DNA from: Zootoca vivipara
Lineage: Eukaryota
Direction of reading: 5' to 3'
DNA: 64,000 nucleotides
Assembly: GCF_963506605.1 (NCBI RefSeq)
Contig: NC_083277.1
Coordinates: forward strand, 95,294,001 to 95,358,000
The translations under genes were made by a program, and so were the position numbers. Positions 4,959-16,176 of this stretch are shown here, piece by piece (position 1 is the stretch's first letter; each line of letters begins with the position of its first letter). The notes beneath the pieces are model-generated. The model had not been told where the DNA came from. It saw only the letters and a list, made by a program, of their open reading frames with translations, and did no database searches.

Positions 4959-7900
4959 TTATTTATACCCCGCCCATCTGGCTGGGCGGCTTCCAACAGA
5001 AAAATAAAATACAATAATCTATTAAACATTAAAAGCCTCCCTAAACATTCAGATGTCTTCTAAAAATCTGGACATTCACCTGCTCACCACGTTCCCTTTT
5101 CCAACCAAAGAAAACATGACATCTCCACAAATGTACTGAAGGGATGAGGCTAGAGGGATTGGCATAGATTTGGCCTTCCAGAATTCAGACCACCTGACCC
5201 ATAGTCCAACATACCATATTATCACAAGTGACAAAGATCACAGAAATTCTTCTCGGCTCTGGAAGCTACTGTGTTCCATTAGGGCTTATACCTAAGACAC
5301 TGACATGCTACTGTCATTGCTGTTTCTTAAAACATATGCACCAGTGTGTTTTCTCCAGATCCCCAACTGAACATACTCCGTCTTCCCACCCGCCCCCGCC
5401 CCCCTCTTCACAGCACAGGTCACTCATCCTTACCTTCAACCTTCATTATCTGGTAAGTGTCCTGCACCACCTTGTACTTGGGTTCATTGCGGAAGGCATG
5501 AGCCCATGCCTGGATCAAGTACAGGATCTTGTTGCGAACATTGGCTTCCACTTGTCTCTGTAGAAATGAGCAGAGCCAGGATCAGGCAATATGCCCAATG
5601 GAAACGAACCCACAATATTCCAAGGGAACAGCGTAAGTGCAATCTAATTGGGAAATGGCACTCAGAGCAATCCCCCTTGCCACCTAGCATCAGAAATCCA
5701 ACCTCAGTTATTCTCTTTGCTGTATATTCATCTTCTACTAGGGGTGGGAAGGACAGAAAGAGTGATTTTCCTTGAAAATTTCCTCCTGCTGGAAAGGAAC
5801 TCCATGTTTGGCCTAGGAGGGTGGCTTCACTGTTTATAAATTTGGATTTCTTTTGCTTTTACGGAGAGGAGAAACAGCCAAAAAAGCTCCTACCTTCAGC
5901 AATTCCTTCAACTCCTCCATGGTCAGTTTGTTAGCCACTTCATCGTGAACTGTTTGACCACAGTTCTTTACCACAGATTCCAAGACCTACGCGGAAAATA
6001 TATTCATGAGCATGCACTGTCCCTGACCAAATATCCAAAGAGGTGCCCTGCTGGATTAGGCCAAAGGCCTATCTAGTCAAGTATCCTGTTTCCCCCAGTA
6101 GCCAACTAGACATCCATGGAAATACCACCAGCAACAAATACAAATGCAACAGCCCTTTGCCACTGTTTCCCCCCAGAGGACTGATATTGAGAGACACTGA
6201 TAGCTTTATCCTCCAGGAATCTGTCTAATCCGCTTTTAATGTTGCCCTAGTTACAAGTAATTGGCAGCAGAAGTTCTGGTCCTCCTTTGAACAAAAAGTG
6301 GGCTGGCTGCACATCTCCCTCGCAAGGTTAGGGAAAGAAAGCTTCGCTCATTGACCTGGGAGAGTGAATACACCCTGAGGAAGTGGTTTCACTTTAGCTT
6401 ACCTCTAGCGCGTAGAGAGCCACATGTGGATTCTTGTCATTGACTTTCTTCTTTATTGCACCAACAGCATATTTAGCCCTGGACAACAAAATGCAAAGAA
6501 TAACAGCTCAGTCTAACGGCAGCGTAGGAAGGACCAGTTGTCATTCTGAAGCCATCCCAAAATCCCTGCTCTCCTGAAATATAATAGCAGTGCTTATAAT
6601 GGAAGAGGGAAATGTGTCAACATGTGTCAAGATTTGAAGCTAAATTATTTGACTAATCTACGATAGGCCTGTTGTCTTTGTCCATGGAGTTTTCTTGGCA
6701 GGGATACTGGAGCGGCTTGCCAGTTCCTTCCCCCGAGTGCTCCCTGGAAGGACAGATCCTGAAGCTGAGGCTCCAATACTTTGGCCACCTCATGAGAAGA
6801 GAAGACTCCCTGGAAAAGACCCTGATGTTGGGAAAGATTGAGGGCACTAGGAGAAGGGGACAACAGAGGATGAGATGGTTGGACAGTGTTCTCGAAGCTA
6901 CCAACATGAGTCTGACCAAACTGCGGGAGGCAGTGGAAGACAGGAGTGCCTGGCGTGCTCTGGTCCATGGGGTCACAAAGAGTCGGACACGGCTAAACGA
7001 CTAAACAACAACAACAACAAATCTACGATAACTGTTCCATTTACCAATCAAAATCATTTATGTGTGAGGCAGTGAATACCATGTTTCTCATATTATAAGA
7101 CACGTCATATATTTATTTTTTCCTCAAAAAAACACACTATGGCTTATTTTCAAGGGTTGTCTTATTTTTTTCCTCCTCCTCCTCCTCCTGCCGCGGCCGG
7201 CATTGCTGCTGCGCTTATCACTATGTCTTATTTTCGGGGTATGGCTTATATTCCTTGAATGCTTAAAAATCCTGCTATGGCTTATTTTATGGGTATGTCT
7301 TAAAATATGAGAAACAGGGTATCTTGCACGTCTGTGAATTTACTATGTAATGCGGAAACTGCTGTATGATGAAAGAATATGCTTCATTTTCTTAAGTATC
7401 AGTACGGTAGTTGTAGAAAACTCTTGGAAATACATGCAGTGCCTTCTCTTCCTATTCTTTTCTACAGATACCTTCCTTGTCAAATAATTTCAGACAATTT
7501 CGTTATTAAAGCAGAACACAGAGAACCAACCCAATATAAGCAAACATAATTGTCACATAATTATTATTATTTTCCTTTTGCACAAGGGCTGGAACTTCTT
7601 TGTTCACAGCATGTCTCTAGTTTCACAGGAAAAGAAACCCACAAAACAATTTTCTCATCTCTTTCAGCAGAGGCCGTATATCTAGAAGAGCAGATCTCGT
7701 ATGTAGTTTTAAGAGTTGTTCTGTTAATATATACACTAATAAATACACTGGGATGAGATGGAATGTTAAGACCCAAAAAGACTGACATTAATAGATGACT
7801 TATTTGACTGTCCTGGCAATCCATTTTTTCTGAAGAAAATCTGCAGCGACACTCATCAACTGCTCATTTCATTAGCCTCTCACTTAGTTAAACTTTTTTG

Positions 7901-11191: not shown

Positions 11192-14100
11192 ATGGTGATG
11201 GGCGGCGGCGGCGGCGGCGGCGGCTCCACTTACTTGCTTCTGGGGGGTTCGGGCGCCGGCAAGACCCTGCTGGTGAAGCGGCTGCAGAATATCCCCTCGC
11301 GGCTGGGGAGGGGGGGCATAGCTGTCAAGTTTTCCCTTTTCTCGCGAGGAAGCCTATTCAGCATAAGGGGAAATCCCTTTAAAAAAGGGATAACTTGGCA
11401 GCTATTGGGGGGGGCAGGTGGTCGGTGTAGCCGGGTAGAGAAGGCGGAGGAGGAAGCGAGGAGGCTGCCCAGGGTGGAAAGGGGTTGTGGGTGAGCTGCA
11501 TCTCTGGCCTGCCTGGGAGGGGTGCGGGCTTCGTGCCCCTCTTGCTGGTCATCCATGCCTGCCTGGCAGTGCGACTGGGCACGAGTTGGGGCAAAAGCCG
11601 TGGAGGGAGAGGGGGTGGAGACAGTTCCTGGTGACAGAAAGCTAGGTGTGGTGGGAGGATGGCTTCATGACAATAGACCCTTCACGTGAGGGTTGACATA
11701 TTTTGAAAAGCAAAACTTTCGTGGCTTCCACTTTTAACTATGGATCACTACGACGACTCTACCCATGAAAAAAAAGAGTACGTGCCCTGGGGAAAGAGAG
11801 GACATATGGCAACCCTACTCCCATCCTCTCTCCTGTGGGTTGAAGGGAACCCCTTGCACCTATTTGGGCTGTATCTGTGCTGTGTTGTACCGAACCTTTC
11901 TCCATTCCGTTCCCACCGCTTTCCTTAACAGTCTCTCTGCACAGCTGAGCTCCAAAGATGGTGCCAAAGACCTTGGGGAGCCGCCAGCTACTCTGCCTAC
12001 GGTATGGCCTTTCTCATCTTTGGTTTGGTTCTTGTGGCTCAGCAGATGTGGCTCAGCAGTAGAGCATGTGCTCTGCAGGCAGAAGGTGCCAGCAGGTTTG
12101 CTCCTGAACATCTTGTTCAAAGGATCTTGAGTAGCATCAGCAGGAAAGAACCACTGTCAGCCCGAGTAAATATTGCCCAGCTAGCCCACCAACAGTATGA
12201 CTTGGCATAAAGCAGCTTCTTGTGTTCCGATTGGTACAGGATGCTGTGGTACCCAGATTAGAGATGATTTACTGCTCCTGACAGGAAGATGTGGCAAAAT
12301 ATTTGACAGAAACAAATTGTGGTAAAGATAAGGGCAATGCTGTGGTCACACTAGCTAATGTTTTACAATTCTGTCATCAATGAAATCAAACTTCATTGAG
12401 CAAATTTCATCAATGAAATTGAACATTGTATATACAGTTACAGGTAGGTAGCCGTGTTGGTCTGAGTCAAAACAAAATTTAAAAATTCCTTCAGTAGCAC
12501 CTTAAAGACCAACTAAGTTTTTATTTTGGTATGAGCTTTCGTGTGCATGCACACAGATTGGTTTATTTCAGAGTGGTTTTTGCTTTGTGTGATAATGGCC
12601 AGTAGGTGGCTCTCAAGGAGCAGTTCTAAGACAGGCCTCAACCTCTTCCTATAGTTTCTGCTGTGATTACCTTTGTTGCATTTTGTCACTCTTCTTGGTA
12701 CAAAGGATACACTTCAGTTAGTACATGTGACTGTATAGCTTACACATGGCTGTGTTGTAATTGGCTTACAGTTCGTTGCACACTGCAAAACTATTATCAC
12801 GTTACCCTGTCCCCAGCCTCCTGCAAGTATTAATATTGCTCCAAATATTTTCAAAATAAGCAACTTTGAGAAAAGAAGCAATTGTACACAAGGAGAGGAC
12901 ATGGTTCAGTGGCAGGCATACCGTGTTTCTCCAAAAATAAGACACCGTCTTATATTTATTTTTCCTTAAAAAACACACACAGTGGCTTATTTTCAAGGGA
13001 TGTCTTATTTTTTATTAAGTATGGTACAGTTTAACCCACAAGGTTAAACTGCCTATCACTATGGCTTATTTTCGGGGTATGGCTTATTTTCGGAGAAACA
13101 CGAAAGACTACATTCAGCATTTTGAGGTTTCTGGGCAACACACCATCAATAAAAACAACCAAGAAACTTGTAGTGCTCTCAAGACACTGGTTGAAACTAT
13201 TGAGTTATCCTTAAGCACCGTGGTTTTGATTGCACAAACATTCCTAGAGCCCTCTGCCCAGATGAGTCATGTAAATAAACTAAACCTCAAACCAAATTAT
13301 TTTGTTTTAAAACAACACTTTGACCAACTCTTCTCTATACCAGTACTCCCTGGTAACACTTATTTCACACCTCACAGCTCTTAGGTTACCTACACAAAAT
13401 GCCACACTTACAGTCTGCATTAGTCCATGAGATATGTACAGTGTAATCCCATACATGTCTACTGAGAAGCAAATCCCATTGAACTCAGTGGGACTTGCTG
13501 CCAGTAGAAGACTTCAAACCTATGCACTTATTTGGGAGTAAGACACATTGAGTTCTTTAACTTCCAACCAAGTATGCACAGGATTGCACTGTCATTATAA
13601 GGCAGCAATAGCTTGTTTTGAGAATTGTAACTGTATCTCCAGCTTATCAGGCTTTGTAAGTGCATGGAAGAGCTCCAATCAGATTCTTCCAGTGTCAAGA
13701 GTTGAGTCATGCTTGACAGAAGTACCTAGATCAATCCCTTTGCCTGTGTTGTGAATAACAGCTCAGTTACCCGCCAGCATACAAGTCTAATTGGTGGTTG
13801 TCCCCTTGCAGGTTGGCACAAACCTTACTGACCTTCAAATAGGAAAGAAAATCACAATTCGTGAACTGGGAGGATGCATGGGCCCCATCTGGTCTAGTTA
13901 TTACAGTGACTGTTGCTGCGTCCTGGTAAGGGAAATCTGTCCGCTCCTGTGGCTGTTTGCTGTTCTTATTTACTTATTTCATTAAAAATGAAAGCTTAGG
14001 GTCTGAGGGGCCTGTACAATACTTCCACTTAGAAAAAAATAACTCTGATTTCTAGAAAATCTTGCTCTGATCAGAGAACAACTAGGCAGTATGTATGCTG

Positions 14101-14796
14101 CAGCACCTCAGTAGTTCATGCATATTTCCAAATTCTTCTGGCTATGCTCAGTGTTGGAAAACTCTGGAACTTGAGAAACAAGCAGTTTTTCACTTTGGGA
14201 CTGCCTTTGAATCATTCTCTTTTTCTTTCTGTCTCTCCTGCAGTACATGATTGATGCTGCTAAGCCTACGCAAATCTCCTCATCCTGTATTCAGCTTCTG
14301 TCACTTCTTTCTGCTGAGCAGCTAGCATCAGTCCCCGTACTCATCATTTTCAACAAGATGTAAGAGATATTTAACTTTAAACCCTGTGCAGGGGGCTCTG
14401 GAAGAGGGGGAGCAGAATTTGATGGGCTTCAGTGACTATTGGTAGCCAATGGCAAGGCAGTGGGGCGATGACGACTACCTGCAGTTAGCAGAATGGGGAT
14501 ATTTTTTTATTTTCAGTTGATTTGCAACCTGCTCACAATGTTCCACTGCAGGGCTTCTTATTGGAAAGAGTTTAGCAGGCAGTAAAAAGTATGTGACTGC
14601 TGTTTTCTCTCTCTACTCTGACTTTAGTGACCTACCCTGCTATATGTCCCTTGTGGAGATGAAGTCATTGTTCCGAATCCAGGATATCATTGCCTGTGCC
14701 AAGCAGCCCATCACTGTTGTAGAGACCAGTGCACGTGATGGCAATGGCTTATCCAACGTGATGCAGTGGTTTCATTCTACAACCCGATGTGATTGA
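11192..14796 (+). CDS. ARL16: ADP-ribosylation factor-like GTPase 16
   Basis: Exons 11192-11288 (P-loop LLLGGSGAGKT), 11943-12001 (LGEPPATLPT), 13812-13925 (VGTNL..TIRELGGCMGPIWSSYY), 14244-14359 (..IFNKI), 14628-14796 (DLPCYMS..ETSARDG, TGA). Matches recalled human ARL16 including its atypical RELGG G3. Start at 11192 or 11198 is inferred. Confidence 0.95.
11289..11942 (+). other. U12-type (minor spliceosome) AT-AC intron, ARL16 intron 1
   Basis: 5' end ATATCCCCT (consensus ATATCCTT), branch site TTCCTTAAC at 11921-11929, 3' end CAC. Splicing gives in-frame RLQ-K-LSSKDG. Confidence 0.9.
11317..11406. mobile_element. 90-bp MITE in ARL16 intron 1
   Basis: TIR CATAGCTG(T/C)CAAGTT; inverted sister copy at 59031-59120. 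Confidence 0.85.
12440..12555. mobile_element. Penelope-like element fragment
   Basis: GTAGCCGTGTTGGTCTG..AGTAGCACCTTAAAGACCAAC..AGCTTTCGTG, recalled as typical of reptile Penelope-like repeats. Confidence 0.6.
12921..13102. mobile_element. Tc1/mariner (pogo-like) MITE
   Basis: CCGTGTTTCTCC.AAAATAAG TIR and internal GGCTTATTTTC repeats shared with 7079-7319. Confidence 0.75.
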
Positions 14797-16176
14797 AGCT
14801 GGAGATTGCTCTTATCTCAGGTACCTCGGTTGGACATGGAGCAGCAGAAAGAGAGCTAGGCAACAGTCCTAGTCTTATCACTCAGGGTGTGAATTAGGAA
14901 GCGGCAGCTAGCAAAATTTATAGCCAGCAAAACTTAATAGTTCTCTGCAGGCAGTGGAAACAACATTGCTGCTATGGACTTTGGGTGTCATTTGAACCCG
15001 AAAGTAAATATTTTCATATTTAAATCATTAAGTATATTGCCTCTTCTGTCTTGCACGTGCTACTACCGGTAGGATGCTGGAAGATAATGCTTCTATGGAA
15101 GGGGAGGACAAACTACATGTCTGTCTCATCCATTTTTTTCAATTAAGGTCTTCATTTCTCTCAGTCCAAGTTCCCATGGCATCTGTGCCAGTTCTCAAAT
15201 TCCTTCTGTGGCTTAGAGCCTCTTTGCAGGATTCTTTGTTCATGCAATGAATGCAGAGTTGTTAACACAGGATCCAAAAGGTAGCCCTTGGTTTCAGGGA
15301 TATTGTAACTTTTATACATTCTAAGTAGAATATAATATAGAATAAATTTATTTCTCCCTTCAGGTAATCACACAACAGCAGTTGCAACTGACCTGTGGAA
15401 TGTGGTTGTGTGTCGAGGGTACCTATTTGATTATATGTGGCATGAAACTTACCTTCTGCCATATCCTTTTGTGACATTATTAGCTGCATGCCATTCTCAC
15501 TAACCATTGTCCTATACACCAAACCCCATGTAGCTTCATCTGCTACAGTGGCAAGATCTTTGATTAACAGAATGGTGAAAAGGCAAAGGATCCATTTGTC
15601 CATCCATCCTGTTGCCACAAGTGGAGGAAGCGACTTGCTTGGACTCATTTCTGTGCCGAGCCCTGCCTCCTTTTACCCGGAATCAATCACAGACTTTGGG
15701 CCATGTGAAGGAGGTGACACTTTGAAAGTTTAAAAATAGCCACCCCTCTCATCCTTTAAATACCTGATGGAATAAAAACGGTGTGACTAATTGTTAGACT
15801 GTTAGGACAGAACCAATCTGGGGAGTTTCCTTGAGAAGGTATTTTGAGCTAAACAGTGTAACACTGCTGAGGAAAAGCTTTAAATGTTCCGGAAATGTTC
15901 CAGAAGCAATTGGGGATGGGGGAAATCAAACTAAGATACATTTAAGCATAAAAGGACATTTAAACTAAGGAATCCTGAAAAAGATGACGGTGATCTGTTA
16001 TATTATCATCAGCTATAATCTATGCTGTTTTTCTGACAATTGTCTCTCAAAGCTGCTCAGATCAATAATAATAAAAAGATGTACTGCCACCAGGCTCACA
16101 AACAAAGGGAACAAAAAAAGAGGAAAGGATGGGACAGGAAAGAAGGTGGTGGAGCAAAACCAAATCTTCACAAGTA

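What the first reader, a model, noticed from the sequence alone, without database searches (positions are those of the whole stretch)
11289..11942. Minor-spliceosome AT-AC intron in ARL16
Seen: exon 1 homology ends at CAGA|ATATCCCCT with no GT donor there. A perfect TTCCTTAAC branch site lies 13 nt before CAC|AG, and AT-AC splicing restores the frame and the match to human ARL16. The donor has C at +7/+8 where the consensus has TT. Known: U12 introns are rare, often rate-limiting, and linked to ciliary phenotypes. GT-AG-only predictors would mis-annotate this junction, especially with an AG 2 nt downstream. I cannot confirm whether it is already catalogued in other species.
Basis: partly seen in the sequence, partly recalled or inferred. 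Interest (0 to 1): 0.7.

Follow-up and report, generated by a model that had tools for sequence, protein, structure and literature searches.

The report
Known minor AT-AC intron, lizard ARL16
RNA reads show that the first intron of this lizard's ARL16 cilia gene is cut at rare AT-AC ends, and it is the counterpart of an intron already catalogued in humans as minor-spliceosome type, so it is likely spliced the same way and is an ordinary finding apart from a weaker-than-usual start signal.

Summary
Window 11289-11942 is a 654-nt intron, ATATCCCCT...TTCCTTAAC-13 nt-AC. Same-species RNA reads join 11288 to 11943 (10 reads, 8 starts, in 1 of 3 raw-read runs), as do contigs of a second study and of a related species; two DNA runs show no such joint. 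The spliced product equals a RefSeq lacertid ARL16 model. The human intron with the same exon flanks is catalogued as U12 AT-AC and is retained on CENATAC depletion or ZRSR2 mutation. The genome holds canonical U11, U12 and U6atac. What remains is small: the donor has C at +7/+8, absent from the human AT-type list searched, though other +7 variants occur there; and mis-modelled homologues suggest +7 has drifted in many birds and some lizards (19 of 25 read-through models). Many database models get this junction wrong. U12 dependence in the lizard is inferred, not tested. The scan noted the shark ARL16 minor donor before (e1-8633511).

The parts
11192..11288 (+). ARL16 exon 1, coding part (start codon to phase-1 junction; carries the P-loop motif)
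   Evidence: identical to the N-terminus of P0001
11289..11942 (+). Intron 1, 654 nt, AT-AC termini, phase 1
   Evidence: joint 11288-11943 in RNA reads and contigs
11289..11297 (+). U12-type donor ATATCCCCT; +1..+6 consensus, C at +7 and +8
   Evidence: letters confirmed by DNA contigs
11317..11405 (.). High-copy 89-nt inverted-repeat element (MITE-like) 28 nt behind the donor; 23-nt arms, 91% complementary
11921..11929 (+). U12-type branch site TTCCTTAAC (branch A predicted at 11927 or 11928)
   Evidence: predicted pairing with this genome's U12
11941..11942 (+). AC acceptor; decoy AG at 11930-11931 and 11943-11944
11943..12001 (+). ARL16 exon 2 (59 nt); intron 2 is GT-AG
13812..13925 (+). 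ARL16 exon 3; intron 3 is GT-AG
14244..14359 (+). ARL16 exon 4; intron 4 is GT-AG
14628..14796 (+). ARL16 exon 5, coding part with stop codon

Best explanation
Window 11289-11942 is intron 1 of lizard ARL16, removed at AT-AC ends, and it is the orthologue of the catalogued human U12 AT-AC intron, so it is likely excised by the minor spliceosome. Shown: the junction, the frame, the motifs and the presence of U11, U12 and U6atac genes. Inferred: U11/U12 binds donor and branch site together; U11 and then U6atac pair with C+5/C+6 (the pairs tested genetically in P120), while C+7/C+8 lose two pairs; the perfect branch site likely makes up for the weaker donor. Retention would give a frame that stops at 11492 after 100 codons, so slow minor splicing would lower ARL16 output.
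For: Junction in RNA of 2 studies of this species and in a second species; not in 2 DNA runs and no second ARL16 copy among 12 genome matches. Human intron chr17:81683595-81683692 has the same exon flanks and phase, is listed as U12 AT_AC, and retention rises 0.06 to 0.40 on CENATAC depletion (padj 2e-11) and 0.09 to 0.42 with ZRSR2 mutation (padj 2e-7). None of 85 major AT-AC-type introns responded to CENATAC depletion (PMC8280824 passage). U11 (4 matches), U6atac (8) and U12 (1) are in G000, the best copies with canonical pairing boxes. Branch site pairs with this U12 at -8.5 kcal/mol. Donor +3..+6 is ATCC, not RAGT. Human U12 donors with a non-T at +7 exist, and one (SUDS3, +7 A) is retained in CENATAC-mutant cells, padj 4e-6.
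Against: No perturbation data in any reptile. The donor misses consensus at +7 and +8; predicted U6atac pairing drops from -8.2 (consensus motif) and -5.1 (human ARL16 motif) to -3.9 kcal/mol, and ATATCCCC was not found in the human file searched. The 30 nt before the acceptor are 22/30 pyrimidines, whereas U12 introns are described as lacking a distinct tract. Raw-read support is 10 reads in 1 of 3 runs. In patient cells the human ARL16 retention was borderline (padj 0.052). U4atac was not searched.
Confidence: 0.93

Rival explanations
1. The intron keeps AT-AC ends but, with its decayed donor, is now spliced wholly or partly by the major spliceosome (U2-type AT-AC or hybrid intron).
For: C at +7/+8 weakens U6atac pairing; pyrimidine-rich 3' end; major AT-AC introns exist; no retained reads in X19, rough upper bound about 6% by depth, 26% by junction count.
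Against: Donor has none of the U1-type +3..+6 letters RAGT; +1..+6 and the full U12 branch site are intact and the branch motif is unchanged in listed differences of two related species; the human orthologue depends on minor-spliceosome factors.
Confidence: 0.05
2. The real junction lies elsewhere (GT-AG or GC-AG, or AT-AG shifted by two bases), or the main transcript starts inside intron 1 as in RefSeq isoform X1.
For: In-frame alternatives exist on paper; RefSeq X1 (P0130) starts at the ATG at 11765; organism E has a contig that keeps the 3' part of intron 1 but is spliced at intron 2.
Against: The only joint listed out of exon 1 is 11288-11943, with 1 nt of ambiguity, which excludes the +2/+2 shift (21 weaker joints were not shown). 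No GT-AG pair keeps the conserved spacing; 42 of 120 homologues have the clean junction. Intron-start models lack the P-loop.
Confidence: 0.02

Closest known systems
Human ARL16 intron 1, chr17:81683595-81683692, U12 A-type AT_AC (de Wolf et al. 2021, PMC8280824; rows seen in supplementary files 1, 2, 4, 5)
   Same: Same gene, same exon flanks and phase, AT-AC termini, ATATCC donor core, CCTT(A/G)AC branch site, AG directly behind the AC
   Different: 654 nt against 98 nt; donor +7/+8 is CC against TT; branch site is the full TTCCTTAAC against GTCCTTGAC; holds a MITE-like repeat
U12-type AT-AC (A-type) introns in general (Turunen et al. 2013, PMC3584512, sections 4 and 8 read)
   Same: Conserved donor and branch site, short branch-to-acceptor distance, cognate snRNAs in the genome
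   Different: Donor departs from consensus at +7 and +8; 3' end is fairly pyrimidine-rich
Human A-type minor introns with a non-T at +7: MATN1 (C), SUDS3 (A), CIAO2B and MYO7A (G) (PMC8280824 file 1)
   Same: Listed as U12 in spite of a +7 change; MATN1 and MYO7A pair it with a strong branch site
   Different: None of these AT donors has C at both +7 and +8
RefSeq XP_034960124.1, ARL16 isoform X2 labelled Zootoca vivipara (P0001)
   Same: 184 of 184 residues equal the AT-AC spliced product
   Different: The same source also lists an isoform X1 that starts inside intron 1 and lacks the P-loop

Membership tests
U12-type (minor) intron, AT-AC subtype | Excised at AT...AC termini | tested here: met
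   joint 11288-11943, AT..AC
U12-type (minor) intron, AT-AC subtype | Conserved donor core +1..+6 (ATATCC), including C+5/C+6 read by U11 G6/G7 and U6atac G14/G15 | tested here: met
   pairing positions from PMC4980772 passages
U12-type (minor) intron, AT-AC subtype | T at +7/+8 of the full consensus donor | tested here: inconclusive
   C at both; but T+7 is not absolute: four human A-type genes in the U12 list lack it
U12-type (minor) intron, AT-AC subtype | Branch site TTCCTTAAC close to the 3' end | tested here: met
   11921-11929, 13 nt before the end; optimum given as 11-13 nt
U12-type (minor) intron, AT-AC subtype | No distinct polypyrimidine tract | tested here: inconclusive
   22 of the last 30 nt are pyrimidines, branch site included
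U12-type (minor) intron, AT-AC subtype | Minor snRNAs encoded in the genome | tested here: met
   U11, U6atac, U12 over the Rfam cut-off; U4atac not searched
U12-type (minor) intron, AT-AC subtype | Position and subtype conserved in orthologues | tested here: met
   human row; homologue alignment
U12-type (minor) intron, AT-AC subtype | Splicing depends on U11/U12/U6atac | not testable with these tools
   shown for the human orthologue only
U12-type (minor) intron, AT-AC subtype | intronIC or MIDB score above the minor threshold | not testable with these tools
   program and databases not on hand; supplements held for PMC7367187 and PMC11347168 hold no ARL16 row
U2-type (major) AT-AC intron | U1-type donor letters at +3..+6 (RAGT; motif recalled) | tested here: not met
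   ATCC
ARL16 (Arf family GTPase) | Arf domain and best matches annotated ARL16 | tested here: met
   PF00025 E 2e-25; homologues 64-100% identical in exon 5, nearly all named ARL16

The most novel reading that the evidence does not exclude
In lacertid lizards, a skink and most birds the ARL16 minor donor has lost T at +7 (C, G or A instead) while the branch site stays perfect, and the intron is still spliced efficiently at AT-AC. This is a lineage-wide natural experiment showing that ATATCC plus a strong branch site is enough for the minor spliceosome, and score-based catalogues may drop this intron in those species.
Probability: 0.4. Interest if true: 0.35.

Novelty: already known. Interest (0 to 1): 0.15.

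Why it matters
Little that is new: it confirms in a lizard an intron known in human, and it settles which lacertid ARL16 model is right (isoform X2, not the intron-start X1). It is a practical warning, since many sauropsid ARL16 models are wrong at this junction and lose or disrupt the region behind the P-loop. The +7/+8 donor drift, if confirmed in DNA, gives natural variants for testing how much U11/U6atac pairing a minor intron needs.

Tried and rejected
GT-AG, GC-AG and AT-AG alternatives were enumerated (donors 11230-11499, acceptors 11860-11994): many keep a frame on paper, no GT-AG pair gives the conserved length, and none was listed in reads. Processed pseudogene as source of the junction: no joint in DNA runs X15, X17, no second ARL16 copy. 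Assembly error at +7/+8: not supported. Compensatory U11 or U6atac: the best copies carry the canonical boxes; the fourth U11 match and five weaker U6atac matches were not fetched. Runs X20 and X21: gene barely covered, no evidence either way. Preferential retention: X1 contig depths for intron 1 (13.9) are like those of introns 2-4 (9.8-15.6), and contig depth is a poor measure, so no claim. RNA duplex energies with U11 favour slipped registers for C-rich donors; rejected as evidence because the register is set by protein contacts to +1..+3. Searches for a report of the sauropsid donor drift: 'ARL16'+'minor intron', 'ARL16'+'U12', 'ARL16'+'AT-AC' and 'U12-type degenerate chicken non-canonical orthologous introns' listed none on it; the three papers were seen as listings only. 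The first enumeration missed the stop codon and was redone.

Full report
Observation. Exon 1 ends at 11288, the intron opens ATATCCCCT at 11289, the branch motif TTCCTTAAC lies at 11921-11929, and the intron ends ..GCAC at 11942 with AG directly behind. The nearest GT dinucleotides are at 11273 and 11324. The branch 9-mer occurs once in the window against 0.64 expected, so only its position is informative: about 7e-5 for a 13-position window before a fixed acceptor.

Gene. Five exons (11192-11288, 11943-12001, 13812-13925, 14244-14359, 14628-14796) give 184 residues and one stop. The protein is letter for letter P0001, RefSeq XP_034960124.1, named ARL16 isoform X2 of Zootoca vivipara, with an Arf domain at E 2e-25. 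The window is therefore most likely from a lacertid lizard. ARL16 is single-copy: 4 of 12 genome matches are its own exons, the other 8 are 25-35% identical paralogues.

Reads. Of 21 runs listed I laid 8. In X19 (raw RNA reads, about 6% of the run read) 10 reads from 8 starts skip 11289-11942, all in the orientation of a + strand transcript; intron 2 has 11 reads. X1 (contigs, RNA by guess, another study) holds the same joint at depth 60 and joints for the three GT-AG introns. X20 and X21 show no joint at intron 1 and have depth 0 over exon 2. The joint is ambiguous by 1 nt only, which excludes the in-frame AT-AG variant shifted by two bases. Organism B (X5) has the same AT..AC joint; organism E (X11) lists none but has a contig that keeps the 3' part of intron 1 and is spliced at intron 2. 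DNA-like runs X15 and X17 show no such joint and match 11234-11339 without a difference (they may be the assembly's source). In X19 the unique part of the intron has depth 0; a rough bound on retention is 6% by depth or 26% by junction count.

Machinery. G000 holds U11 (4 matches), U6atac (8) and U12 (1) over the Rfam cut-offs. In the fixed register the donor pairs at +4..+6 and +9 with both U11 and U6atac and fails at +7 and +8. Predicted U6atac pairing is -3.9 kcal/mol against -8.2 for a consensus motif and -5.1 for the human ARL16 motif; the branch site pairs with this U12 at -8.5. The C+5/C+6 pairs with U11 G6/G7 and U6atac G14/G15 are the ones tested by suppressor assays (PMC4980772, passages). 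U11 does not pair with +1..+3, and donor and branch site are recognised cooperatively (PMC3584512, sections 4 and 8). A U11 snRNP structure leaves only four nucleotides free for pairing (bioRxiv 10.1101/2023.12.22.573053, passages). Compensation by the branch site is my inference from these. Retention would stop translation at 11492.

What is known. Supplementary files 1, 2, 4 and 5 of PMC8280824 list human ARL16 chr17:81683595-81683692 as a U12 A-type AT_AC intron with the same exon flanks. Retention goes from 0.06 to 0.40 after 48 h of CENATAC depletion (padj 2e-11), from 0.09 to 0.42 with ZRSR2 mutation (padj 2e-7), and from 0.04 to 0.13 in patient cells (padj 0.052) (file 13 was not searched; the main text, seen as passages, does not name ARL16). 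PMC13216214 (section 7 and passages) names ARL16 among ciliary minor-intron genes with retention in ZCRB1-heterozygous cells; its Tables S1/S2 gave no ARL16 row among the three files held. PMC9250359 (passages) covers ARL16 and cilia and does not use the word intron. Supplements held for PMC7367187 and PMC11347168 have no ARL16 entry; their online databases could not be seen, so whether the lizard intron itself is catalogued is open.

The donor. In file 1 of PMC8280824, ATATCCT occurs 196 times in all columns; ATATCCC occurs once as a donor (MATN1, followed by T), ATATCCA once (SUDS3) and ATATCCG for two genes (CIAO2B, MYO7A). The A-type set has about 179 introns (figure legend). So a +7 change is rare but precedented, SUDS3 is still retained in CENATAC-mutant cells, and CC at +7/+8 on an AT donor was not found in that file.

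Homologues. Of 130 hits the tool listed 120. By a pattern match 42 have the clean junction, 25 read through the donor into the intron (N-I or H-I behind the conserved exon-1 end), 49 lack the exon-1 P-loop (many are partial or short isoforms) and 4 are otherwise altered. In read-through models the next codon is intron +6..+8. It is Leu, compatible with T+7, in 6 (two snakes, a turtle, two sparrows, a frog), and Arg, Pro, His or Gln in 19 (18 birds, one skink). This suggests drift at +7, but it rests on amino acids of faulty models: Arg may also be AGR, and some models may splice right there. Two galliform models read through the whole intron of about 90 nt, branch site included, and 14 models show the branch-to-acceptor stretch read as protein or start just there. 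Among lacertids, RefSeq X1 starts at the ATG at 11765 inside the intron, and two other models use the AG just behind the branch site.

Verdict. A real, conserved, already catalogued minor AT-AC intron. U12 dependence in the lizard is inferred from orthology and motifs (0.93). The only residue of novelty is the weakened donor and its possible drift across sauropsids. Interest 0.15.

Noticed in passing
window 11317-11405: 89-nt element with 23-nt inverted arms (91% complementary; folds at -40 kcal/mol) 28 nt behind the minor donor; very high copy number in DNA runs, ends flanked by TA. MITE-like; could affect donor access.
   Followed up: partly
window 11725-11817: A second dispersed repeat in the same intron (summed contig depth in the hundreds to thousands in X15/X17).
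   Followed up: no
window 10969 downwards, minus strand; VHS-domain exons at 5432-5548 and 5897-5998: Head-to-head neighbour whose start codon lies about 220 bp from that of ARL16, in a CpG-rich stretch (GC 0.69); VHS matches fit HGS (name recalled from human synteny).
   Followed up: partly
window 11765-12001: In-frame ATG inside intron 1 gives the RefSeq isoform X1 (211 aa, no P-loop); probably a model built on retained-intron RNA.
   Followed up: partly
window 15461-15469: A perfect ATATCCTTT motif in the 3' UTR region; my pattern found no U12 branch site behind it before 21618 and no joint was listed there; likely chance.
   Followed up: partly
window 11533-12003 in run X11 (organism E): Contig keeps the 3' part of intron 1 but is spliced at intron 2, as expected if the minor intron is removed later.
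   Followed up: no
PMC8280824 file 1, human ARL16 row: Human exon 2 begins AGGTGA, a good major donor three bases behind the AC acceptor; the lizard has AGCTGA there.
   Followed up: no
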